Source of the DNA: a virus
Lineage: Duplodnaviria > Heunggongvirae > Uroviricota > Caudoviricetes
Strand: one strand, 5' to 3'
IMG/VR virus record: IMGVR_UViG_2713896773_000003
Span: 1-20,639 of that record
DNA: 20,639 nucleotides
Positions 11,193 to 19,885 of the stretch are shown piece after piece. A program made the translations under genes and the position numbers. Numbering within the stretch: position 1 is the stretch's first letter; each line of letters opens with the position of its first letter. The notes beneath the pieces are model-generated. The model searched no databases. It worked only from the letters and a program-made list of their open reading frames with translations, and was not told where the DNA came from.

Positions 11193-12296
11193 ATGGCCCG
11201 CTCAGTTAACGACCGCCTGCAGGACGAAACGATAGCGCACGGCCTGTATGTAAACCGCTACGGTACTGGCGTCGCTCGTCGGATGGTGGCGCTGCTCAGC
11301 AAGATGGATGCTGACCTGGCTGCCAAACTGCTGGTGCTGCTGGATGGTAAGCGTGCCGATACCTACAGCGCTCGCCGCCTGGCTTCGCTGCTGGCTGGTG
11401 TGCGCGACCTGAATCAACAGGCCTATGAACCGGTGAATGCTGCGCTGGCACGTGAACTGACGCGCTACGTTGAATATGAGGTCGGTTATCAGTTTGACCT
11501 TTTTATCAGCATCATTCCGAAGCAGATCCTCAGGCATGTACCGCTCCAGAGCATCGCGCCTGAGCAGGTTTACGCCTCAGCAGTGACTCAGCCATTCCAG
11601 GGGCGCTTGCTGAAGGAGTGGGGCCAGAAGCTTGAAACGGATCGGCTGGATAAAATCACCAACGCTGTGCGCACCGGTTTCCTTCAGGGTGAAACGGTAG
11701 ATCAGATCGTTAAACGCGTTGCCGGAACGCCGAAACTCAATCGTGAAGATGGGGTGATTAACGCCTCCCGTCGCGACCTGGCGGTGGTGGCCCGCACGGC
11801 TGTAAATCACATGGCCGCTACTGCGCGTCAGGAGTTCGCACAGGGCAACAGCGATATCGTAAAGGCCAAACAGTGGTCCTCAACGCTGGACACTCATACC
11901 AGCCAGTGGTGCATTATCCGCGACCGAAAGCTTTACACGCTCGACGGCAAGCCGCTGGGGCATGAAATTCCGTATCTGCGCGGACCCGGCAAAATCCACT
12001 TTTGCTGCCGCTCCGGTGAAATCCTGATTACCAAATCGTGGGAAGAGATGCAGATAGCCTCTGGCGAACTGAGCAGCGCCACACGCGCTTCGATGGATGG
12101 ACAGGTGCCATCGCATACCAGCTATGCCGAATGGCTCGTCAGGCAACCGTACGCACGGCAGGAGCAGGTGCTGGGCGTTACTCGCGCGCGGATGCTGCGT
12201 GACGGCAAAATCACCGTGCCGGAGATGTTCAACGATGCCGGGGAGTTCCTGACCCTGGACGAACTGCGCCGCGTGGATGCATCGGCTTTTGAATAA
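11193..12296 (+). CDS. Head morphogenesis protein (phage Mu F-like or SPP1 gp7-like minor head protein)
   Basis: Track ORF 11166..12296. ATG 11193 has GAGGTG upstream and starts 2 nt after the portal stop. Position directly after the portal and the about 370-aa size fit the MuF-like family. Confidence 0.7.
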   Translation: MARSVNDRLQDETIAHGLYVNRYGTGVARRMVALLSKMDADLAAKLLVLLDGKRADTYSARRLASLLAGVRDLNQQAYEPVNAALARELTRYVEYEVGYQFDLFISIIPKQILRHVPLQSIAPEQVYASAVTQPFQGRLLKEWGQKLETDRLDKITNAVRTGFLQGETVDQIVKRVAGTPKLNREDGVINASRRDLAVVARTAVNHMAATARQEFAQGNSDIVKAKQWSSTLDTHTSQWCIIRDRKLYTLDGKPLGHEIPYLRGPGKIHFCCRSGEILITKSWEEMQIASGELSSATRASMDGQVPSHTSYAEWLVRQPYARQEQVLGVTRARMLRDGKITVPEMFNDAGEFLTLDELRRVDASAFE

Positions 12297-12316
12297 CTGA
12301 ATAAGGTAATAAAACA

Positions 12317-12781
12317 ATGACTCAACATATTGGCGTGAAGCTCATCAATGCTTACCCGATGACCCGTCTGGCATATAACGACTTTCGTGGTTGGGAGTTA
12401 CCAAGTGACGAAAACGGAAGTGATGAAGGTTATCTCGTCGAGTATCTGGATGGCGGAAAGCCAAACACCGATCGCTTCAACGGGTATGTGAGCTGGAGTC
12501 CGAAAGATGTGTTCGACAAAGCCTACCGACCAGTGGCGGGGCTTAGCTTCGGACTGGCTGTCGAAGCCCTGAAATCAGGCAAGCGTGTCACCCGCGCAGG
12601 CTGGAACGGCAAGGGCCTGTGGCTTGAGCTGGTCCAGCAGTCGCCATCTGTGGACCTGCCGTACATTCGTTTAATTTATCCTGTGCCGGGCAATGGTGCT
12701 ATGCCATACCCAAATGGCGCTCGCGTGCCTTGGGCACCAAGCCAAACCGACGTCTTGGCTGATGACTGGCAAATTCTCTAA
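12317..12781 (+). CDS. Two-domain accessory protein; C-terminal half DUF2829-like (the family of Thoeris anti-defence Tad2), N-terminal half a possible degenerate duplicate
   Basis: C-terminal motifs LAVEALKSGKRVTRAGWNGKGLWLEL and VPWAPSQTDVLADDWQIL match my recollection of the DUF2829 signature. N-terminal segment GYVSWSPKDVFDKAY echoes the C-terminal W-P-x-D-V-L-x-x-D-W element. Sits between head morphogenesis and scaffold genes, a classic moron site. Confidence 0.6.
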   Translation: MTQHIGVKLINAYPMTRLAYNDFRGWELPSDENGSDEGYLVEYLDGGKPNTDRFNGYVSWSPKDVFDKAYRPVAGLSFGLAVEALKSGKRVTRAGWNGKGLWLELVQQSPSVDLPYIRLIYPVPGNGAMPYPNGARVPWAPSQTDVLADDWQIL

Positions 12782-12804
12782 ACCAGTTGCTTGGGGGGTG
12801 GTCT

Positions 12805-13014
12805 ATGCGAGATGACGATTTTCACCATGTGGGCGATGGCCGCGGTAAGCGCCGAGTGTTCGTTAACGGCAACGAGGTCAAGCGCTGCGTATGGGCGGAT
12901 GTTAAGCGAGGAATAGCATGCTTCTACCCATACCCCATTCGGGTCCATAAGCGAAAGCGCGATGAAGTCTATACCCGCAAACTGCGCGGCGTAATAACCG
13001 TCGAATTTATCTAA
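12805..13014 (+). CDS. Hypothetical small basic protein (69 aa)
   Basis: Track ORF 12787..13014. ATG 12805 is preceded by a G-rich stretch (GGGGGGTGG). No motif recognised. Followed immediately by a terminator hairpin. Confidence 0.5.
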   Translation: MRDDDFHHVGDGRGKRRVFVNGNEVKRCVWADVKRGIACFYPYPIRVHKRKRDEVYTRKLRGVITVEFI

Positions 13015-13015
13015 C

Positions 13016-13041
13016 AGGCTGCCTTCGGGTGGCCTTTTTTA
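13016..13041 (+). terminator. Rho-independent terminator closing the accessory pair
   Basis: Stem AGGCTGCC (13016-13023) / GGTGGCCT (13028-13035): 8 bp including two G-U pairs, UUCG tetraloop, T-run 13035-13040. Confidence 0.6.
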
Positions 13042-13121
13042 TGCCTGCCGCTGAGCGGATGCGACGCGGTGACCGGGTCGGATGACCTATTACCAATGGC
13101 CGGAAGGCTGGAGCAAAAACA

Positions 13122-13874
13122 ATGAAACTGAAACTTGATGCTAACGGAAATGTGGTCGTTGAAAACGGTATGCCTGTGTACATCCATGATGATGGCAAAG
13201 AAATCCCGTTCGACGCAGCCGCAGCGATGACCAAAATCACCTCCCTGAATGGTGAAGCTAAAACTCACCGTGAAGCGAAGGAGGCGGCGGAAGCCAGTCT
13301 CGCGAAATTCTCTGGCATCACCGATCCGACCAAGGCGCTCGAAGCCCTGGAGATGATGACCAAAATCGACCAGAAAAAACTGATCGACGCTGGCGCTGTT
13401 GACCAGGTTAAGGCTGAGATTACCAAGGTATTCCAGCAGCAGCTGGATGAAGCGAACGGCAAGACCAAACAGCTCGAAAGCCAGCTCTACGACGAGATGA
13501 TCGGCGGGCGCTTCGGTGGCTCCAAATTCATTTCAGAGAAGATGGCGATCCCGGCTGAGTTCGTGCGTTCCCACTTCGGTCAGAACTTCAAAATCGAAGA
13601 CGGCAAAGTCGTGGCGTACGACGGGCAGGGCAACAAGGTGTTCTCTCGCACCAAGCCAGGCGAGTTAGCCAGCTTTGATGAGGCCCTGGAGTCTCTGGTC
13701 GAGTCGCATCCGCAGAAAGATTACATCCTCAAAGCGTCCGGTAACAGCGGCGGCGGTTCTCACCAGTCGCAGCACCAGGCCGGGCAAAAAACCATGAAAC
13801 GCGATGCGTTTGATTCCCTGGATAACGCTGGCAAGCAAGCAGCGCTGAAAGACGGCGTCAGCATCGTCGATTAA
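13122..13874 (+). CDS. Putative scaffolding protein
   Basis: A 250-aa acidic, alpha-helical-looking protein (runs of A, E, K, Q) directly upstream of the major capsid gene; GGAG about 9 nt upstream of the ATG. Confidence 0.6.
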   Translation: MKLKLDANGNVVVENGMPVYIHDDGKEIPFDAAAAMTKITSLNGEAKTHREAKEAAEASLAKFSGITDPTKALEALEMMTKIDQKKLIDAGAVDQVKAEITKVFQQQLDEANGKTKQLESQLYDEMIGGRFGGSKFISEKMAIPAEFVRSHFGQNFKIEDGKVVAYDGQGNKVFSRTKPGELASFDEALESLVESHPQKDYILKASGNSGGGSHQSQHQAGQKTMKRDAFDSLDNAGKQAALKDGVSIVD

Positions 13875-13891
13875 ATCGAAAGGAGCCATAA

Positions 13892-15031
13892 ATGGCAGGC
13901 AATACCCTTACTGGTCTGATCCCGACCATCTATACCGCGCTGTACGTAGTGTCCCGCGAGCAAACTGGTTTTATTCCTGCGGTGGCGCGTGACGCGAAAG
14001 CGGATGCTGCTGCAAAAGACCAGACCGTACGTGCGCCAGTCGCACCTGCAGCCACCACTGAAGATATTGTCCCTGGACCTTCAGCGCCTAATTCTGGCGA
14101 CCAGACCATCGGTGGTGTGGATGTCAAAATCACCAAATCCAAAATGGCCCCGGTGAAATGGAATGGTGAAGAGCAATTGGCTCTGGGCCCGGCTGGTACC
14201 TACAACACCATCCTGGCTGACCAGTTCAAGCAGGCTTTCCGTGCGCTGGCGAACGAAGTGGATGCGGATCTCGCTGCGCTGTACCTCAACTCCTCCCGCG
14301 CTGTTGGCGCGCCAAAGAATACCCCGTTCAGCATCAAAGACGATCTGACTGATGCTGCGTTGGCGCGTCAAATCCTGACCGATAACGGTGCGCCGACTAC
14401 TGATTTGCGTATGGTGCTGGGTGGCGAAGCGATGGCATCCATCCGTGGTAAACAGGCTGTACTCTTCAAAGCGAACGAAGCGGGAACCGACCAACTGCTG
14501 CGTGAAGGTGTTATCGGTCGCATCATGGGCTTCAACCTCCACGAATCCTTCAGCATCAAGCGTACCGCGAAAAGCGCTGCTGCTGGCTATAAGGTCAATG
14601 GCGCGAAGAAAGAGGGCGATATCATCATCGCTATCTCTGCTGGCACCGGCGGTATTGCTGCAGGTACTGCGGTGAAGTTCGCCGGTGATGACAATCAGTA
14701 TCTGGTCGTTGCGGCTACGTCTTCCACTATCACTATTAGCGCGCCGGGCCTCCGTCAGGATCTGGCAGACCAGGCTGATGTCACTGTGTTGAGCGAATTT
14801 GTACCGAACATGGCGTTTGACCGCGGGGCATTCCTGCTGGCCAGCCGTACCCCGGCGATGCCTGAAGGTGGCGATACTGCTGATGACGTCATGAATGTGA
14901 CCGACCCGGTATCTGGCATCACCTTCCAGGTGGCGCTGTACCGCCAGTACCGTCAGGTGCGTTATGAAGTGGGCCTGGCATGGGGTGTGGCTGCTGTGGC
15001 GCCACGTCATTCCGCCATCATCATGGGTTAA
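13892..15031 (+). CDS. Major capsid (coat) protein
   Basis: A 379-aa ORF with a strong RBS (AAAGGAG), immediately after the scaffold gene and followed by a terminator hairpin. Composition is typical of coat proteins. The 329-aa antisense ORF 14081..15070 is rejected. Confidence 0.8.
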   Translation: MAGNTLTGLIPTIYTALYVVSREQTGFIPAVARDAKADAAAKDQTVRAPVAPAATTEDIVPGPSAPNSGDQTIGGVDVKITKSKMAPVKWNGEEQLALGPAGTYNTILADQFKQAFRALANEVDADLAALYLNSSRAVGAPKNTPFSIKDDLTDAALARQILTDNGAPTTDLRMVLGGEAMASIRGKQAVLFKANEAGTDQLLREGVIGRIMGFNLHESFSIKRTAKSAAAGYKVNGAKKEGDIIIAISAGTGGIAAGTAVKFAGDDNQYLVVAATSSTITISAPGLRQDLADQADVTVLSEFVPNMAFDRGAFLLASRTPAMPEGGDTADDVMNVTDPVSGITFQVALYRQYRQVRYEVGLAWGVAAVAPRHSAIIMG

Positions 15032-15035
15032 CCCA

Positions 15036-15058
15036 GGGGGCTTCGGCCCCTTTGTTTT
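15036..15058 (+). terminator. Rho-independent terminator after the major capsid gene
   Basis: GC stem GGGGC (15037-15041) / GCCCC (15046-15050) around a UUCG tetraloop, followed by TTTGTTTT (15051-15058); probably partial, to enrich capsid transcript. Confidence 0.6.
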
Positions 15059-15069
15059 CAGGAGGCCCA

Positions 15070-15270
15070 ATGGCCGGATTAACCAAAGAGCAGAGCGCGC
15101 AGCGTGAGGCTGAAAAGCTTGCCGCGCAGAACGGCGCTGAACAAACAGGTATTGAGCTGGTGGCTATGATGCGAGATACCCCGGAGTTCCCCGGCGGTCC
15201 GCTGAGCGCTGAGGTTCACCCTGACGAAGTCGATAACTGGCTGGCGCTGGACTGGCGACTGGAGGAGTAA
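15070..15270 (+). CDS. Hypothetical small acidic protein (66 aa)
   Basis: Track ORF 14980..15270 overlaps the capsid gene. ATG 15070 has AGGAGG (15060-15065) upstream and lies just after the terminator. No motif recognised. Confidence 0.5.
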   Translation: MAGLTKEQSAQREAEKLAAQNGAEQTGIELVAMMRDTPEFPGGPLSAEVHPDEVDNWLALDWRLEE

Positions 15271-15272
15271 CT

Positions 15273-15584
15273 GTGAGCGATAAAGATATTGAGCAGGAAA
15301 TTCAGGCCAAAGGCTTGAACGCGCCGCGCGTTACGCTGGGCGAGTTGAAGGCGAATATTAAGCATGCCGAGATCGTGAAGCACGTATCCGTCACCGGGCA
15401 GGTGCTTCGCTGGGCGGTCATCACCACTCAAAACGGATTCGCAGTAACAGGGAATCCGTCGTGCTCAGTTTCCTCCGCTAACGACAACGCTGAAATTGGC
15501 GAGAAAATTGCTATTGAGAACGCCGAAAGCGAGTTGTGGGCGTTGATGGGATATGCGTTAAAGCAGAAGCTTTTCGAAGCCTGA
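15273..15584 (+). CDS. Gp49-like protein (phage N4 gp49 / Sf6 gp66 family, function unknown)
   Basis: GTG start with GGAGGAG (15261-15267) 5 nt upstream. Motif NGFAVTGNPSCSVSSANDNAEIGEKIAIENAESELWALMGYALKQKL fits my recollection of the family signature (G.SAC, NFD.EIG..IA..NA...W.LEGY.L). Confidence 0.55.
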   Translation: MSDKDIEQEIQAKGLNAPRVTLGELKANIKHAEIVKHVSVTGQVLRWAVITTQNGFAVTGNPSCSVSSANDNAEIGEKIAIENAESELWALMGYALKQKLFEA

Positions 15585-15597
15585 GAGGAGCTCTGAG

Positions 15598-16080
15598 ATG
15601 ATTAATGCCGATCCCCATTCGTCTGACTTCAACAGCTATGCCAGCGTTGGTGATCTGCGCGCGTTCGCTGCGGGGCGCGGATACACCATCCCTGCTGAAG
15701 ATGGCGAATGCAGCCAGATGCTGATGCAGGCAATGGACTTTCTGGAAGGGAAGGCCTGGCGCGGTCAGCGTTCCAGCGCATCACAGCCTCTATCCTGGCC
15801 GCGTTCCGGCGTGCGCTTCGATGGTGTTGACCTGTCGAATGATGCGATTCCACAGCGCCTGATTGATGCTCAATGTCGCCTGGCCATCGAATCGCAGGAG
15901 ATTGACCTCACCCCGTCGGTCGCTGGCGGTGGGGCGGTTACGATGGAGCGCGTCGAGGGTGCGGTAACAGTCCAGTATGAGCCGGGAACGAATAAAGCTT
16001 CTCCGTCATTCCCATGGTTCTATTCCGCACTGCGCGGGCTTGTAGTGGGCGGCAACCAGGTCCGGGTCGAAAGGGGGTAG
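15598..16080 (+). CDS. Putative head-tail connector protein (gp6-like / DnaT-like fold)
   Basis: A 160-aa ORF in the post-capsid connector position. Motif WRGQRSSASQPLSWPRSG resembles connector-like proteins annotated as DnaT-like as I recall them. Confidence 0.5.
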   Translation: MINADPHSSDFNSYASVGDLRAFAAGRGYTIPAEDGECSQMLMQAMDFLEGKAWRGQRSSASQPLSWPRSGVRFDGVDLSNDAIPQRLIDAQCRLAIESQEIDLTPSVAGGGAVTMERVEGAVTVQYEPGTNKASPSFPWFYSALRGLVVGGNQVRVERG

Positions 16081-16081
16081 C

Positions 16082-16435
16082 ATGGCAATCGACTATCGCC
16101 GCATGCGCGCGACCGCGACCCGACTGCTGACCGAGAACGGGAAGGCATATCAGCTTACCCGCGGCGGCGGCACCATCCGTGACCAGTTCGGCAAAGAGGT
16201 CACCACCCCGGCCATTACCGCGACCGTAACCGGTGTTATCACCGAATACTCCTCCCGCGAAATCGACGGTTCCCTGATCGCCACCGGCGACAAGAAGCTG
16301 GCGGCCACTTTCGAGACGGAAGTGCGCATCGATGACCGCATCGAAATCGACAGCAAAAAGTGGCGCGTGGTACAGCCGAATCCGGTTAAGCCTGCCGATG
16401 TGCTGATCTCCTACAACATCCAGCTGAGGGCGTAA
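16082..16435 (+). CDS. Putative head closure or neck protein
   Basis: A 117-aa ORF starting 2 nt after the previous stop; assignment by position and size only. Confidence 0.45.
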   Translation: MAIDYRRMRATATRLLTENGKAYQLTRGGGTIRDQFGKEVTTPAITATVTGVITEYSSREIDGSLIATGDKKLAATFETEVRIDDRIEIDSKKWRVVQPNPVKPADVLISYNIQLRA

Positions 16436-16437
16436 CT

Positions 16438-17037
16438 ATGGTGGGGTCTGTTAATCAGCCGTTCCTGGCTGCCATTCAGCTGTTCGTGGATGGCTCGAAG
16501 CAGGAGATGGACGAGGTGGTGCGCCGGACGGGTATTAAAATCCTCGCTCAACTGGTTGAGATGTCCCCGGTGGGCCAACCGGATATCTGGCAGGTCAACC
16601 AGACCGCGACGGCGTACAACACTGCGGTGCGGGAGCATAACGCGACCCTGCGTGATGACCCGGCTAATCTGACCAAATCAGGACGACTTAAGCGCGGCCT
16701 GCGCGTCAACGACTCGATGGACATCAAAAAGCCTGAGGGCTATGTCGGCGGGCGGTTTAAAAACAACTGGTATGTGGGCTTTGACAGCCAGCCAAGCCAA
16801 TCCAACGACACCCCCGACGCTTCCGGCCAGGGTTCCAACTCCCGCGGTCTGGCAGTGCTCGAGGTGTTCCGGGTAGGGCAGGTCAGCTCGATTTTCTTCA
16901 CCAATAATCTGCCATATGCGGCAGCACTGGAGAACGGGCATTCCGGCCAGGCACCCGGCGGCATGGTGGGCATCACTGCGCTGGATGCCGCGCAGTTGTT
17001 CCGTGAGGCAATGAGCGAGGTGCGCAATGGCCAGTGA
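16438..17037 (+). CDS. Putative neck or tail-completion protein (HK97 gp10-like position)
   Basis: A 199-aa ORF tightly packed with neighbours; assignment by position only. Confidence 0.45.
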   Translation: MVGSVNQPFLAAIQLFVDGSKQEMDEVVRRTGIKILAQLVEMSPVGQPDIWQVNQTATAYNTAVREHNATLRDDPANLTKSGRLKRGLRVNDSMDIKKPEGYVGGRFKNNWYVGFDSQPSQSNDTPDASGQGSNSRGLAVLEVFRVGQVSSIFFTNNLPYAAALENGHSGQAPGGMVGITALDAAQLFREAMSEVRNGQ

Positions 17038-17476
17038 CCAGTCAATGCGAATTGCTGAACTACTGGAGAGCCGCATTGCGGTTATCTGCTTATCGCTTGG
17101 GCTGCCCGTAGCCTGGCCGAACATACCGTTTACTCCCCCGGATAGCTCACCATACGGGCGTGTTTATGTTCTGCCGGCACAGACGGTGGGGCAAGACCTG
17201 GAAGGTCAATTGCGAACCTATCAGGGCATCCTGCAGCTCAACATCATTGCGCCAGCAGGCAGCGGCGTGACGCAGGCCAGAGGGCTGGCTAAATCTGTCG
17301 CTGATGCATTTCCTGAAGGGCTTGCGCTGGTGGATGGTGACCTGACTGTTTATATCAATGGGCCGCCGCAGGTGAGACAACCCATCCAGGACCGGCCAAC
17401 CTCGGCGTCCAACGGGTCCAGTGGCTCCATAACCTACACCATTCCCGTCAGCATGCAGTACCGCGCTGACTACTGA
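17027..17476 (+). CDS. Putative tail terminator or tail-completion protein
   Basis: A 149-aa ORF overlapping the upstream gene by 11 nt, immediately before the major tail gene and followed by a terminator hairpin. Confidence 0.5.
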   Translation: MASDQSMRIAELLESRIAVICLSLGLPVAWPNIPFTPPDSSPYGRVYVLPAQTVGQDLEGQLRTYQGILQLNIIAPAGSGVTQARGLAKSVADAFPEGLALVDGDLTVYINGPPQVRQPIQDRPTSASNGSSGSITYTIPVSMQYRADY

Positions 17477-17499
17477 CCCGCCAGATGGCGGGTTTTTTA
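17477..17499 (+). terminator. Rho-independent terminator-like hairpin before the major tail gene
   Basis: Perfect stem CCCGCC (17477-17482) / GGCGGG (17487-17492) with loop AGAT, followed by TTTTTTATT (17493-17501). Confidence 0.6.
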
Positions 17500-17522
17500 T
17501 TACCTAAATTCAGGAGAGTGCT

Positions 17523-18455
17523 ATGGCATTCGCAATCCCTAACGGCTCGCGTGTTAACGTGGCCAAGGCCTATCAGGCTCCCATCACCTTTACCGCTGCC
17601 TCTAACGCTACTGAATGCGAACTGACTGTTGCATCTGCCGCTGGCATCCTGGCGGGCGACGTAGTGCAGGTGAGCTCCGGCTGGCTAAAACTCGATAATA
17701 TGGTGCTGCGCGTTAAATCCGTAGCCGGTACCAAAATCGTGCTGGATTCGTTCGATACCTCTGACACCACCAAATTCCCGGCAGGCACTGGCGCGGGCAC
17801 GCTGCGTAAAATCGACACGTGGATCACGATGCCGCAGGTGATGACCCTCTCCACAGAGGGTGGTGACCAGCAGACCATCAGCGTGCAGTTCCTTGAAGAC
17901 GATAAGGCCCGTACCATCCCGACCTTCAAAAACGCCGTGGTGCAGGTCTACACCTTCGCGCACGATCCGCTGCTGGCAATTTACAAGCGTCTGAGTGAAC
18001 TTGACGAATCCAGCGACACCACTGCTGTGTGGTTCCATAACCCGCGCGGCAAAGCGGACCGTTATTACTCTGCCAAAGTGTCTTTCCAGAAGGTGCCTAA
18101 GACCGAAATCAACGCCGTGGAAAGCAACGAAGCGCGCATGAACTTCGAATCGGATATGCAGATTTACCCGATCGCCGATTCATCCGTTACGCCGCTGGCG
18201 TTCCTGACTGATCTGCCATCAACCAAAGCAGTTAGTGTTGGAGATGCGCTCGATTTAGCCGTCGTTATGCAAGGCGGCTCAGCCCCTTACACCTACGTGT
18301 GGAAGAAAGGAAGCTCCGCAATTCCGGGCAAAACCGCCTCGACGTTCAACATTTCGTCTGTCTCATCCGGTGATGCTGGCGTTTATACCTGCGAAGTCAC
18401 TGACGCCGCAGGCAAGACCCTAACGTCGGCGGCATGCACCGTTACTGTCAGCTAA
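17523..18455 (+). CDS. Major tail (tube) protein with C-terminal Ig-like domain
   Basis: AGGAGAG RBS. 310 aa. C-terminal about 85 aa carry Ig-like hallmarks (PYTYVWKKGSSAIPGKTASTFNISSVSSGDAGVYTCEVTDAAGKTLTSAACTVTV). Lies upstream of the chaperone and tape-measure genes. Confidence 0.75.
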   Translation: MAFAIPNGSRVNVAKAYQAPITFTAASNATECELTVASAAGILAGDVVQVSSGWLKLDNMVLRVKSVAGTKIVLDSFDTSDTTKFPAGTGAGTLRKIDTWITMPQVMTLSTEGGDQQTISVQFLEDDKARTIPTFKNAVVQVYTFAHDPLLAIYKRLSELDESSDTTAVWFHNPRGKADRYYSAKVSFQKVPKTEINAVESNEARMNFESDMQIYPIADSSVTPLAFLTDLPSTKAVSVGDALDLAVVMQGGSAPYTYVWKKGSSAIPGKTASTFNISSVSSGDAGVYTCEVTDAAGKTLTSAACTVTVS

Positions 18456-18463
18456 CCAATCAG

Positions 18464-18486
18464 GCCCGGTTCGCCGGGCTTTATTT
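18464..18486 (+). terminator. Rho-independent terminator after the major tail gene
   Basis: Perfect stem GCCCGG (18464-18469) / CCGGGC (18474-18479) with UUCG tetraloop, followed by TTTATTT. Confidence 0.65.
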
Positions 18487-18671
18487 CGCAATGAGTACCG
18501 CTGGCGAATTTTCTGTATTCGCATTACCCATCTTTTCAAACTGCGCCTTCACACGCGCTCTCTAACCAAGAACCTTTCAGAAAGCGTTCCTGAGAACTGC
18601 CGTTAGTGCCGGTGGGCCTCTTGGGGCGGCTTTTCTGTGTGAACAGGTTCGCTTTTTAAAAGGTACACACC

Positions 18672-19202
18672 ATGAATCACCCAACCGTCTCAGTGAATGG
18701 GGTCTCCGTCCGCGTTGATGACGAAGGCCGGTACAGTCTTAACGATCTTCATGCGGCAGCGGTAGCTAACGGAGAGGCTACTGAGTCACAAAGGCCCAGC
18801 GTCTTCCTGCGTAGCGCGCAGATCAAACGCTTCGTTAAAGCGCTAAAATCCAAAGCACTAAAAAGTGCTTCGGAACAAAATCAACCACTTAAGGTTATAA
18901 AAGGCGGTGATCAAAGTGGTGCATGGGGCATTGAACTTCTGGCAATCCGCTATGCCGCCTGGATAAAGCCAGAGTTTGAGATTGAAGTGTACGAAGTATT
19001 TAGAACAGTGGTGCGTCTTGGTATCAGTGCCATGTCCCGCCTGAACAAAATCGACCACATCATCAACACTGAAACCAAGGCAATTAGCCAGTGTGCCAGC
19101 CAAATGGCCAAGTGGGGTGTTGGTGGTCGCAAGCAGCTATTACATGCAGCCCGGGATCGCGTCGCCGACGAAGTCCAGATGTATCTGCCCGGCATTAACT
19201 AA
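18672..19202 (+). CDS. KilA-N domain protein (DNA-binding domain with a C-terminal extension of unknown function)
   Basis: N-terminal region VSVNGVSVRVDDEGRYSLNDLHAA ... AWGIELLAIRYAAWIKPEF matches the KilA-N / APSES-like pattern. Preceded by a 216-bp non-coding region and followed by a hairpin terminator; more AT-rich than the flanking tail genes. Confidence 0.7.
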   Translation: MNHPTVSVNGVSVRVDDEGRYSLNDLHAAAVANGEATESQRPSVFLRSAQIKRFVKALKSKALKSASEQNQPLKVIKGGDQSGAWGIELLAIRYAAWIKPEFEIEVYEVFRTVVRLGISAMSRLNKIDHIINTETKAISQCASQMAKWGVGGRKQLLHAARDRVADEVQMYLPGIN

Positions 19203-19204
19203 TA

Positions 19205-19228
19205 CCCGCTACGGCGGGTTTCGTTTTT
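19205..19228 (+). terminator. Terminator-like hairpin after the KilA-N gene
   Basis: Stem CCCGC (19205-19209) / GCGGG (19214-19218) with loop TACG, followed by TTTCGTTTTT. Confidence 0.55.
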
Positions 19229-19241
19229 CTAAGGAACCGAA

Positions 19242-19580
19242 ATGACCAAATTCTCCCTGATCCCGAACCCGACCTTCTCCGTTACCGCCAGCATCCCGCG
19301 CGCTGGTGCTGAAGACGGCAAGCTGACCTTTACCTTCCGCCACAAGACACTGGAAGAGCTGCGCTCTATGGATGAAAAGCTGCAAAAGTCGGCTGAAGGT
19401 AAAAAGGCTGCTATCGAGCCGCAGGCCGACTACCTCATGGAAATTGTCGAGGGGTGGGCACTACCTGACGAGTTCACCCGCGACAACGTTATTGTCCTTC
19501 TTCAGAACTACCCGCGCGCGTTCGACAGCATCGGTCTGGCCTACACCAAAGAGCTGATGGGTATCCGCGAAAAAAACTAA
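19242..19580 (+). CDS. Tail assembly chaperone (lambda gpG-like)
   Basis: A 112-aa ORF with AAGGAA RBS, directly upstream of the tape measure gene, ending in a run of 7 A that forms a slippery site. Confidence 0.75.
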   Translation: MTKFSLIPNPTFSVTASIPRAGAEDGKLTFTFRHKTLEELRSMDEKLQKSAEGKKAAIEPQADYLMEIVEGWALPDEFTRDNVIVLLQNYPRAFDSIGLAYTKELMGIREKN

Positions 19581-19885
19581 GGCAGGTCGCCGCAGCGTTG
19601 TACACGCCGGGACCGACTCTCGCGGAGTTAGCCGCTTTTGGTTTGACGCCTGAGGACGTGGAGGAAGAGGTGGGTATCCTGCCCTCTGTGTGGAAGTCTT
19701 TCACCATCTTCTCTGCCCTGGCAACCCAGTGGCGCGTCGGCGCGAGCGGGGCGACCGGCCTTGATTACAACGTTCTCCCCTGGATGTTCGAGTTACACGG
19801 GGTTGAGGATGCGGCGGCCTGCATGGCTGACCTTCAAATTATGGAAAGCGAGGCTCTCAAGGTAATGCATAAGGAGACGAAATAA
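19242..19885 (+). CDS. Tail assembly chaperone G-T fusion (gpGT-like), produced by -1 frameshift near 19571-19577
   Basis: Track ORF 19598..19885 lies in the -1 frame relative to G and ends 1 nt into the tape measure start codon (TAATG). Conserved G then T then tape-measure arrangement. The coordinates span a frameshifted product, not a continuous ORF. Confidence 0.55.
19571..19577 (+). other. Programmed -1 ribosomal frameshift site (slippery heptamer A_AAA_AAC) for G-T fusion
   Basis: Zero-frame codons GAA AAA AAC TAA end the G gene. The -1 frame is open from 19577 to the TAA at 19883-19885 with no stop. The heptamer is analogous to the known U_UUA_AAC class of slippery sites. Confidence 0.55.

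What the first reader, a model, noticed from the sequence alone, without database searches (positions are those of the whole stretch)
17523..18455. Major tail protein ends in an Ig-like domain
The last about 85 residues show the Ig-like pattern (YxW, a conserved cysteine context YTCEV, a DxG core), as in lambda gpV-type tail tubes. Such domains decorate the tube and may aid surface adhesion.
Basis: partly seen in the sequence, partly recalled or inferred. Interest (0 to 1): 0.2.

Follow-up and report, generated by a model that had tools for sequence, protein, structure and literature searches.

The report
Phage tail tube protein with Ig domain
This gene encodes the tail tube protein of an HK639-like E. 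coli prophage, and its last 86 residues form an immunoglobulin-like domain, which is a common and already described arrangement and so an ordinary finding.

Summary
ORF 17523..18455 (+) encodes a 310-aa protein. Residues 1-215 are a T1/HK639-type siphovirus tail tube protein (Pfam PF08813, 152.6 bits; PHROG 584). Residues 225-310 are an immunoglobulin-superfamily domain: Ig_3, Ig_2 and I-set all score above Pfam's cut-offs, the AlphaFold model has pLDDT 92, and Foldseek TM is 0.8 or more to phage decoration Ig domains and animal I-set/C2 domains.

The lambda gpV comparison holds for architecture only. gpV is Phage_TTP_12 + Big_2 and shows no pairwise sequence similarity to this protein. The right comparator for the Ig part is HK97 gp12, which the literature cites as an I-set tail tube protein (50% identity, E 2e-27).

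The gene is 84% identical to the annotated major tail protein of phage HK639 and 98.5% identical to E. coli prophage genes. Similar Ig modules occur in 1925 phage records. The PF08813 + Ig architecture is already described.

The domain is fused in frame, with no frameshift signal. The likely role, inferred and not shown, is an outward-facing, flexibly tethered domain that weakly binds surface glycans. Already known; low interest.

The parts
17523..18455 (+). Complete major tail (tube) protein gene, 310 aa plus stop
   Evidence: ORF list and translation. PF08813 at 152.6 bits and PHROG 584 'major tail protein' at E 2e-85. 84% nt identity to HK639_12 'major tail protein' and 98.5% to an E. coli prophage 'phage tail tube protein'.
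17512..17516 (+). Shine-Dalgarno AGGAG, 6 nt before the ATG
   Evidence: Read directly from the sequence.
17523..17792 (+). N-terminal beta domain, aa 1-90. Inferred to be the outward-facing FCCH-like petal of PF08813-type tubes.
   Evidence: phmmer aligns aa 5-213 to the T1 tube protein 9l0f_G and to 9jlf_E. The model shows six strands in aa 10-74 with pLDDT about 90. The FCCH assignment and outward orientation come from solved homologues described in PMC13576161. Pfam E1_FCCH itself did not hit.
17793..18167 (+). Tube-forming beta-sandwich ('phage barrel') domain, aa 91-215, including the long hairpin arm at aa 115-136
   Evidence: PF08813 covers aa 52-212. Foldseek gives 9jlf_E at E 4e-19 and 9l0f_G at E 1e-15. 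pLDDT is below 50 only at aa 115-136, the arm that orders on assembly in homologues (PMC13576161).
18168..18194 (+). Linker PIADSSVTP, aa 216-224
   Evidence: The 217-aa Ig-less relatives end at ...SDMQIYATA, exactly here. pLDDT dips to 74-78 in blocks 210-230.
18195..18452 (+). C-terminal Ig-like domain (I-set/Ig_3 type), aa 225-310
   Evidence: Pfam Ig_3, Ig_2 and I-set all score above their cut-offs. PDB sequence hits to phage Ig domains. Model pLDDT 92.3. Foldseek TM 0.80-0.84. 50% identity to the Ig domain of HK97 gp12.
17475..17504 (+). Terminator-like hairpin plus T-run just upstream of the gene
   Evidence: Scan result. HK639 annotates a terminator at the equivalent place.
18464..18486 (+). 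Terminator-like hairpin GCCCGG-TTCG-CCGGGC followed by TTTATTT, just after the stop codon
   Evidence: Read from the sequence. It was not reported by the scan. HK639 annotates a terminator at the equivalent place. Homology to HK639 and to the E. coli prophage ends at 18486.

Best explanation
The gene encodes the tail tube subunit of an HK639-like temperate siphovirus (prophage) of Enterobacteriaceae.

Shown:
- Residues 1-215 are homologous to the solved T1-type tube proteins of family PF08813.
- Residues 225-310 are an in-frame, C-terminal immunoglobulin-superfamily domain of the I-set/Ig_3 type. It belongs to the same subfamily as the Ig domain of HK97 gp12.

Inferred from solved homologues: the barrel domain hexamerises into stacked rings around the tape measure protein. 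The N-terminal petal and the C-terminal Ig domain face outward, with the Ig domain held on a 9-residue flexible linker.

A rough estimate gives about 230 copies per tail. It assumes a tape measure of about 1,030 aa in relatives, about 1.5 A per residue, a ring rise of about 40 A and 6 subunits per ring.

Most likely function (hypothesis from the field, not tested here; my probability is about 0.5): the many copies make weak, multivalent contacts with surface carbohydrates, either the bacterial envelope or host mucus. This would hold the virion near a cell and improve adsorption. On this view the domain is dispensable for tube assembly.
For: Identity of the gene.

Gene order matches a siphovirus tail module: tail terminator (PF13554) at 17027-17476, this gene, tail assembly chaperone (PF08748) at 19242-19580, then DUF1799 reached by a -1 frameshift site.

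Ig domain.

Modularity:
- The closest Ig-less relatives (217 aa, 55-58% identity; Providencia, Proteus, Xenorhabdus) stop exactly at the linker.
- 249-aa proteins with unrelated N-termini, and HK97 gp12, carry the same Ig module at 50-61% identity.
- 1925 phage records contain the module, under tail tube, Hoc, whisker and fibre annotations.

The fusion is in frame, with no X_XXY_YYZ heptamer anywhere in the gene.

Literature:
- C-terminal Ig folds of siphovirus tube proteins protrude outward and are proposed to bind carbohydrates weakly. About 70% of enterobacterial siphovirus tube proteins carry one, and I-set examples include HK97 gp12 (PMC8718954; PMC9022992).
- PF08813 + Ig_3/Ig_2 is a listed architecture (PMC13576161).
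Against: Nothing speaks against the identity.

Against the adhesion mechanism: no binding partner is known, and the reviews say the function of tube-protein Ig domains is unclear and unverified. In SPP1 the equivalent FN3 domain is dispensable. In lambda, removing the Big_2 domain costs 100-fold in activity, and the domain touches a neighbouring subunit, which points to a structural contribution instead.

The outward orientation is inferred from homologues, not modelled in an assembled tube.
Confidence: 0.85

Rival explanations
1. The Ig domain is mainly structural. It contacts neighbouring subunits on the tube surface and stabilises the tail or aids its assembly, as proposed for the lambda gpV C-terminal domain.
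For: In lambda, the Ig fold lies parallel to the tube axis, touches the beta1-beta2 loop of the adjacent subunit, and its removal lowers activity 100-fold (PMC8718954). This lineage lacks the inter-ring cysteines that T1-type tubes use for stabilisation: window Q105 and F123 align with the T1 cysteines (PMC13576161).
Against: Tube proteins at 55-58% identity, and T1 itself, build tails with no Ig domain. The domain sits on a lower-confidence linker. The same module is found on capsid decoration, whisker and fibre proteins, where it cannot play a tube-specific role.
Confidence: 0.25
2. The domain is a near-neutral passenger. It is a promiscuous module that spreads by recombination and has no measurable effect on infection.
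For: The SPP1 FN3 domain is not needed for infection or viability. The module is highly mosaic across unrelated proteins. A recombination breakpoint lies inside it.
Against: The domain is retained intact in all 310-aa relatives from Escherichia, Kluyvera and Klebsiella at 65-94% identity, with 21 invariant columns. Thirteen of the 14 nucleotide differences from the E. coli prophage copy fall in synonymous codons or in the one changed codon, so only one residue changes, which is consistent with purifying selection.
Confidence: 0.15
3. The motifs are a chance resemblance and the C-terminus is not an Ig fold.
For: None found.
Against: Three Pfam Ig models score above their cut-offs. PDB sequence hits reach E 4e-40. 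The model has pLDDT 92. Foldseek gives probability 1.00.
Confidence: 0.01

Closest known systems
Escherichia phage HK639 major tail protein (HK639_12, ADO67696.1) and PGAP-annotated 'phage tail tube protein' genes of E. coli prophages (e.g. WP_134393362.1)
   Same: Same length (310 aa) and the same PF08813 + Ig_3/Ig_2/I-set architecture. 84.4% nt identity to HK639 and 98.5% to the prophage. Same neighbouring genes and the same flanking terminators.
   Different: Only point differences. Against the E. coli prophage, all 14 differences cluster in the last 23 codons. The cassette downstream of the gene differs in each genome.
HK97 gp12 major tail subunit (NP_037706), the literature example of an I-set domain on a tail tube protein
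   Same: A C-terminal, in-frame Ig domain of the same subfamily: 50% identity over 105 residues, E 2e-27. It includes GG-x-PY-x-Y-x-WKK, SGDAG-x-YTC and the C-terminal AACT-x-T motif with both cysteines.
   Different: The N-terminal tube domain is a different, shorter family (Phage_TTP_11, with marginal PF08813) and has no detectable pairwise similarity to this one. There is no extra N-terminal petal.
Phage T1 / FCWL1 / NBD2 gp39 tail tube proteins (PDB 9l0f, 9jlf; PF08813)
   Same: Homologous over aa 5-213: 37-38% identity, phmmer E about 1e-36, Foldseek E down to 4e-19. By homology, the same petal + barrel + hairpin-arm build.
   Different: They are 217-222 aa and have no Ig domain. They have two cysteines that cross-link rings, which this protein lacks: Q105 and F123 occupy those positions (PMC13576161).
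Lambda gpV (P03733)
   Same: The same overall plan, a tube-forming N-domain followed by a C-terminal Ig-like fold displayed on the tube. Foldseek finds gpV at E 7e-9.
   Different: Both domains belong to different Pfam families (Phage_TTP_12 + Big_2). There is no significant pairwise sequence similarity and no Big_2 hit here.
Phage capsid decoration and whisker Ig domains (T5 pb10 C-domain 5lxk/8zvi; N4 and Moo19 decoration proteins; Hoc-like PHROGs)
   Same: The same Ig subfamily by sequence and fold: pb10 E 7e-12, Moo19 and N4 TM 0.82, PHROG 2973/4069 'Hoc-like' E 1e-19 to 1e-25.
   Different: They are attached to capsid or neck proteins rather than to the tube, and often occur in tandem copies.

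Membership tests
Siphovirus tail tube protein, Pfam PF08813 (Phage_tail_3) | Match to the family HMM above the gathering score | tested here: met
   152.6 bits against a cut-off of 24.2, aa 52-212 covering profile positions 1-160 of 165. PHROG 584 'major tail protein' E 2e-85 over aa 1-216.
Siphovirus tail tube protein, Pfam PF08813 (Phage_tail_3) | Fold of solved family members (beta-sandwich barrel, one helix, long hairpin arm) | tested here: met
   Model pLDDT 83.7, with helix 152-163 and a low-confidence arm at 115-136. Foldseek target-normalised TM 0.83-0.84 to 9jlf_E and 9l0f_G.
Siphovirus tail tube protein, Pfam PF08813 (Phage_tail_3) | Position in the tail module: after the tail terminator, before the chaperone G/GT pair and the tape measure | tested here: met
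   PF13554 tail terminator at 17027-17476. PF08748 chaperone at 19242-19580. DUF1799 in the -1 frame with A_AAA_AAC at 19571-19577. The tape measure follows in HK639 and in the E. coli prophage.
Siphovirus tail tube protein, Pfam PF08813 (Phage_tail_3) | Polymerises into hexameric rings that form the virion tail | not testable with these tools
   Needs virion proteomics or cryo-EM. Inferred from 37-38% identical solved homologues.
Immunoglobulin superfamily domain (Pfam Ig_3 / Ig_2 / I-set) | Match to the family HMMs above the gathering scores | tested here: met
   Ig_3 35.7 (cut-off 30), Ig_2 33.2 (27), I-set 29.3 (23.7), ig 23.0 (21.8).
Immunoglobulin superfamily domain (Pfam Ig_3 / Ig_2 / I-set) | Two-sheet Greek-key beta-sandwich | tested here: met
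   Model of aa 217-310 with pLDDT 92.3 and about 8 strands. TM 0.79-0.84 and rmsd 1.4-2.3 A to MALT1 C2 Ig, Sidekick Ig and phage N4/Moo19 Ig domains.
Immunoglobulin superfamily domain (Pfam Ig_3 / Ig_2 / I-set) | Core motif: Trp in strand C and DxGxYxC before and in strand F | tested here: met
   W260, and D284-A-G-V-Y-T-C290. These are invariant in 23 aligned homologues.
Immunoglobulin superfamily domain (Pfam Ig_3 / Ig_2 / I-set) | Canonical strand B to strand F disulfide (typical of the family but not obligatory) | tested here: not met
   The domain has only C290 (strand F) and C305 (strand G). Strand B (LDLAVVMQ) has no cysteine.
Lambda gpV-type tube protein (Phage_TTP_12 + Big_2) | Big_2 (PF02368) C-terminal domain | tested here: not met
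   No Big_2 hit at E <= 1 for the window protein. gpV itself gives Big_2 at 70.1 bits.
Lambda gpV-type tube protein (Phage_TTP_12 + Big_2) | Phage_TTP_12 N-terminal domain, or sequence similarity to gpV | tested here: not met
   No PF16461 hit. BLASTP best E 0.38. Only fold-level similarity: Foldseek E 7e-9, TM 0.28-0.35.
Frameshift-appended tube decoration (SPP1 gp17.1* type) | The Ig/FN3 domain is reached only by programmed ribosomal frameshifting | tested here: not met
   There is a single open frame through both domains. No in-frame X_XXY_YYZ heptamer occurs in 17523-18455.
Glycan-binding phage Ig-like adhesion domains (Fraser-Davidson hypothesis; Hoc/BAM model) | Demonstrated binding to bacterial or mucin carbohydrates | not testable with these tools
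   Requires glycan arrays or adsorption assays with a truncation mutant.

The most novel reading that the evidence does not exclude
The HK97-gp12-type Ig module carried here may be a self-contained mobile cassette that recombination moves between unrelated tail tube families. A breakpoint lies inside it at codon 288, and homology ends at the terminator just after it.

Separately, its invariant Cys290 (strand F) and Cys305 (strand G) may form a non-canonical cross-strand disulfide after lysis, replacing the classical B-F bond to harden the exposed domain.
Probability: 0.2. Interest if true: 0.25.

Novelty: already known. Interest (0 to 1): 0.08.

Why it matters
It matters little beyond correct annotation. 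The gene can be labelled with confidence as a tail tube protein with a C-terminal I-set-type Ig domain, HK639/HK97 gp12-like, and not lambda gpV/Big_2-like.

It adds one more example to the well-documented promiscuity of Ig-like modules on phage virions. The open question is what such domains bind, and this sequence does not make that easier to test than the existing model phages HK97 and HK639 do.

Tried and rejected
- Big_2 and gpV membership: no Pfam hit and no pairwise similarity, so rejected.
- Programmed frameshift that appends or removes the Ig domain: the reading frame is continuous and no slippery heptamer occurs, so rejected.
- Pfam E1_FCCH hit for the N-terminal 90 residues: none. 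The FCCH-like label therefore rests only on homology to solved T1-type tubes as described in PMC13576161.
- NCBIfam gave only one weak, sub-threshold, irrelevant hit (PamR, 18 bits against a cut-off of 300).
- A paper search by PDB code found a source only for 9L0F and 9JLF. It found nothing for 9C2D, 9NCF or 10LJ, so I cite those entries only by their depositors' molecule names.
- Measuring the C290-C305 distance was not possible, because model coordinates are not exposed. The disulfide idea stays untested. It is weakened by related phage Ig domains that carry only one of the two cysteines: 9ncf and 9c2d have only the strand-F one, and T5 pb10 has only the strand-G one.
- Two database 'homologues' with odd C-termini look like a frameshifted and a chimeric assembly product, not alternative architectures (P0019, P0083).

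Full report
**Observation**

The ORF at 17523..18455 (+) is real. It has an ATG start, 310 codons and a stop, and is preceded by AGGAG at 17512-17516. Together they make the immunoglobulin hallmark of a strand-C Trp plus DxGxYxC.

**Tube part**

- Pfam places aa 52-212 in PF08813 (Phage_tail_3, 'phage tail tube protein') at 152.6 bits against a cut-off of 24.2.
- PHROG 584 'major tail protein' covers aa 1-216 at E 2e-85.
- By sequence, aa 5-213 align to solved tube proteins: 9l0f_G (phage T1 tube), 9jlf_E (phage FCWL1) and 10lj_C ('tail protein gp15'), all at E about 1e-36.
- The AlphaFold2 model has mean pLDDT 83.7. It is low only at aa 1-4 and 115-136, the long hairpin arm.
- Foldseek matches 9jlf_E at E 4e-19, 9l0f_G at E 1e-15 and 9lbn_L at E 6e-12. 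Lambda gpV comes much further behind, at E 7e-9 and TM about 0.3.
- A 2026 structural paper on this family describes a barrel domain that forms the lumen and an N-terminal FCCH-like beta-barrel that faces outward like a petal (PMC13576161). By homology, aa 1-90 of this protein are that petal. Pfam's E1_FCCH model itself does not hit.
- The two cysteines that cross-link rings in T1, FCWL1 and NBD2 gp39 are replaced here by Q105 and F123 (alignment; PMC13576161).

**Ig part**

- Four Pfam Ig-clan models pass their curated cut-offs over aa 230-309: Ig_3 35.7/30, Ig_2 33.2/27, I-set 29.3/23.7 and ig 23.0/21.8. Big_2 does not appear even at E <= 1.
- aa 217-310 alone hit the tandem Ig repeats of 9ncf_S ('Immunoglobulin-like domain protein', E 4e-40) and 9c2d_S (deposited as 'Tail protein', E 3e-32).
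- The same segment hits the T5 decoration protein (8zvi_a and 5lxk_A, E about 1e-12), a neck whisker protein (9occ_A), and animal I-set domains such as Robo, titin and contactin.
- The domain model has pLDDT 92.3 and pTM 0.80 and is all-beta.
- Foldseek returns only Ig domains at probability 1.00: phage Moo19 and N4 capsid decoration (TM 0.80-0.84), MALT1 C2-type Ig (TM 0.84, rmsd 1.4 A), Sidekick, obscurin-like/titin, and the T5 pb10 C-domain.

**Context**

The gene sits in a standard siphovirus tail module. The order is tail terminator (PF13554, 17027-17476), this gene, a KilA-N gene (18672-19202), tail assembly chaperone (PF08748, 19242-19580), then DUF1799 in the -1 frame.

The chaperone ORF ends with A_AAA_AAC at 19571-19577, immediately before its stop. 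The -1 frame is open from 19469 to 19885. This is the conserved G/GT frameshift arrangement.

At the DNA level, the gene is 84.4% identical to HK639_12 ('major tail protein') and 98.5% identical to a prophage gene of E. coli annotated as 'phage tail tube protein'. The window is collinear with that prophage at 95.8% identity from 11523 to 18486. The head genes there are P22-coat-like.

**Modularity**

Database relatives fall into three groups:
- 310-aa two-domain proteins at 80-98% identity, from Escherichia, Kluyvera and Klebsiella.
- 216-219-aa proteins at 53-58% identity, from Providencia, Proteus, Xenorhabdus and Arsenophonus. They end at ...SDMQIYATA, exactly where the linker PIADSSVTP begins here.
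- Proteins of about 249 aa from Trabulsiella and Salmonella, which share only the Ig domain, at 57-61% identity, behind an unrelated N-terminus. That N-terminus has a sub-threshold Phage_tail_2 hit.

HK97 gp12 is listed as the I-set example among tail tube proteins in the review PMC9022992 (Table 3, after Fraser et al. 2006). Its Ig domain is 50% identical to this one (E 2e-27), while the tube domains do not align.

A tblastn of the 94-residue segment finds 1925 phage records, mostly Salmonella, Escherichia and Klebsiella phages. The hits lie under features annotated as tail tube, major tail, Hoc-like decoration, neck whisker/fibritin and tail fibre.

So this is a promiscuous virion-surface module, as the literature describes. 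[quoted passage not shown] PF08813 fused to Ig_3 or Ig_2 is listed as an architecture of the family.

**Comparison with lambda gpV**

gpV is Phage_TTP_12 (235 bits) + Big_2 (70 bits). BLASTP against the window protein gives nothing better than E 0.38. The resemblance is one of plan and fold, not of family membership.

**Frameshifting**

Some phages append such domains by programmed frameshifting, for example SPP1 gp17.1*. Here both domains lie in one frame, and the gene contains no in-frame X_XXY_YYZ heptamer. Every subunit should therefore carry the domain.

**Mechanism**

Shown: domain identities, in-frame fusion, linker position and module exchange.

Inferred from solved homologues: hexameric rings, an outward-facing Ig domain, and about 230 copies per tail. 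The copy estimate uses the tape measure length in HK639 and the E. coli prophage (1,024-1,043 aa), about 1.5 A per residue, and the 39.9 A rise reported for a family member.

Hypothesised: weak multivalent binding to surface carbohydrates that aids adsorption. The reviews call this proposed but unverified. The main rival is a structural role like that of the lambda gpV C-domain. Arguing against that rival, close relatives and T1 build tubes without any Ig domain.

**Side observations**

- Against the E. coli prophage copy, the first 863 nt of the gene are identical. All 14 differences fall in codons 288-308 and change only one residue (L300I). Homology ends at 18486, right after a terminator-like hairpin, and resumes at 19204.
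- The segment between those points (18487-19203) carries the KilA-N gene. HK639 and the E. coli prophage carry different genes there.
- The Ig domain has an invariant cysteine pair, C290 in strand F and C305 in strand G. HK97 gp12 shares the pair, but there is no strand-B cysteine. Related phage Ig domains have only one or the other. A possible F-G disulfide could not be tested.

**Verdict**

The finding is correct and ordinary. It is an already-described architecture in a gene nearly identical to annotated ones.

Noticed in passing
window 18487-19203 (ORF 18672..19202 +): A KilA-N domain gene (PF04383, E 4e-15) sits between the tail tube gene and the tail assembly chaperone. It is bracketed by terminator-like hairpins at 18464-18486 and 19204-19219. 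Homology to HK639 and to an E. coli prophage stops at 18486 and resumes at 19204, and each of those genomes carries different genes in this slot. It looks like a replaceable moron cassette.
   Followed up: partly
window 19242-19885: The tail assembly chaperone ORF (PF08748) ends with the slippery heptamer A_AAA_AAC at 19571-19577, just before its stop. The -1 frame is open from 19469 to 19885 and encodes DUF1799. This is the conserved G/GT -1 frameshift arrangement. The prophage annotation lists the two as separate genes.
   Followed up: partly
window 18386-18446 (codons 288-308 of the tail tube gene): Compared with the 98.5% identical E. coli prophage copy (L002), all 14 nucleotide differences lie in the last 23 codons and change only one residue (L300I). 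The preceding 863 nt are identical. This indicates a recombination breakpoint inside the Ig domain, not point-mutation drift.
   Followed up: partly
window 18390-18392 and 18435-18437 (Cys290, Cys305): The Ig domain lacks the canonical strand-B cysteine. It has an invariant pair in strands F and G (23 of 23 aligned homologues, and also HK97 gp12). Other phage Ig domains (9ncf, 9c2d, T5 pb10) have only one of the two. Whether the pair forms a cross-strand disulfide is untested.
   Followed up: partly
window 17835-17837 and 17889-17891 (Gln105, Phe123): The positions that carry the inter-ring disulfide cysteines in T1-type PF08813 tubes (T1, FCWL1, NBD2 gp39) are Q and F here. This tube therefore belongs to the majority of the family that has no covalent ring cross-links.
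   Followed up: partly
window 17475-17504 and 18464-18486: Terminator-like hairpins flank the tail tube gene inside what should be one late operon. HK639 annotates terminators at the same places. From my own knowledge, not checked here: HK639 is reported to use RNA-mediated antitermination, which would read through them.
   Followed up: no
window 13892-15031 versus 17523-18455: The head module is P22-coat-like (PF11651), while the tail tube is T1-type and its Ig domain is HK97 gp12-type. This is a strongly mosaic virion gene set, shared with HK639.
   Followed up: no
database proteins P0019 and P0083: Two apparent homologues have different C-termini. One looks like a frameshifted read-through and the other like a chimeric assembly product. 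They should not be taken as alternative domain architectures.
   Followed up: partly
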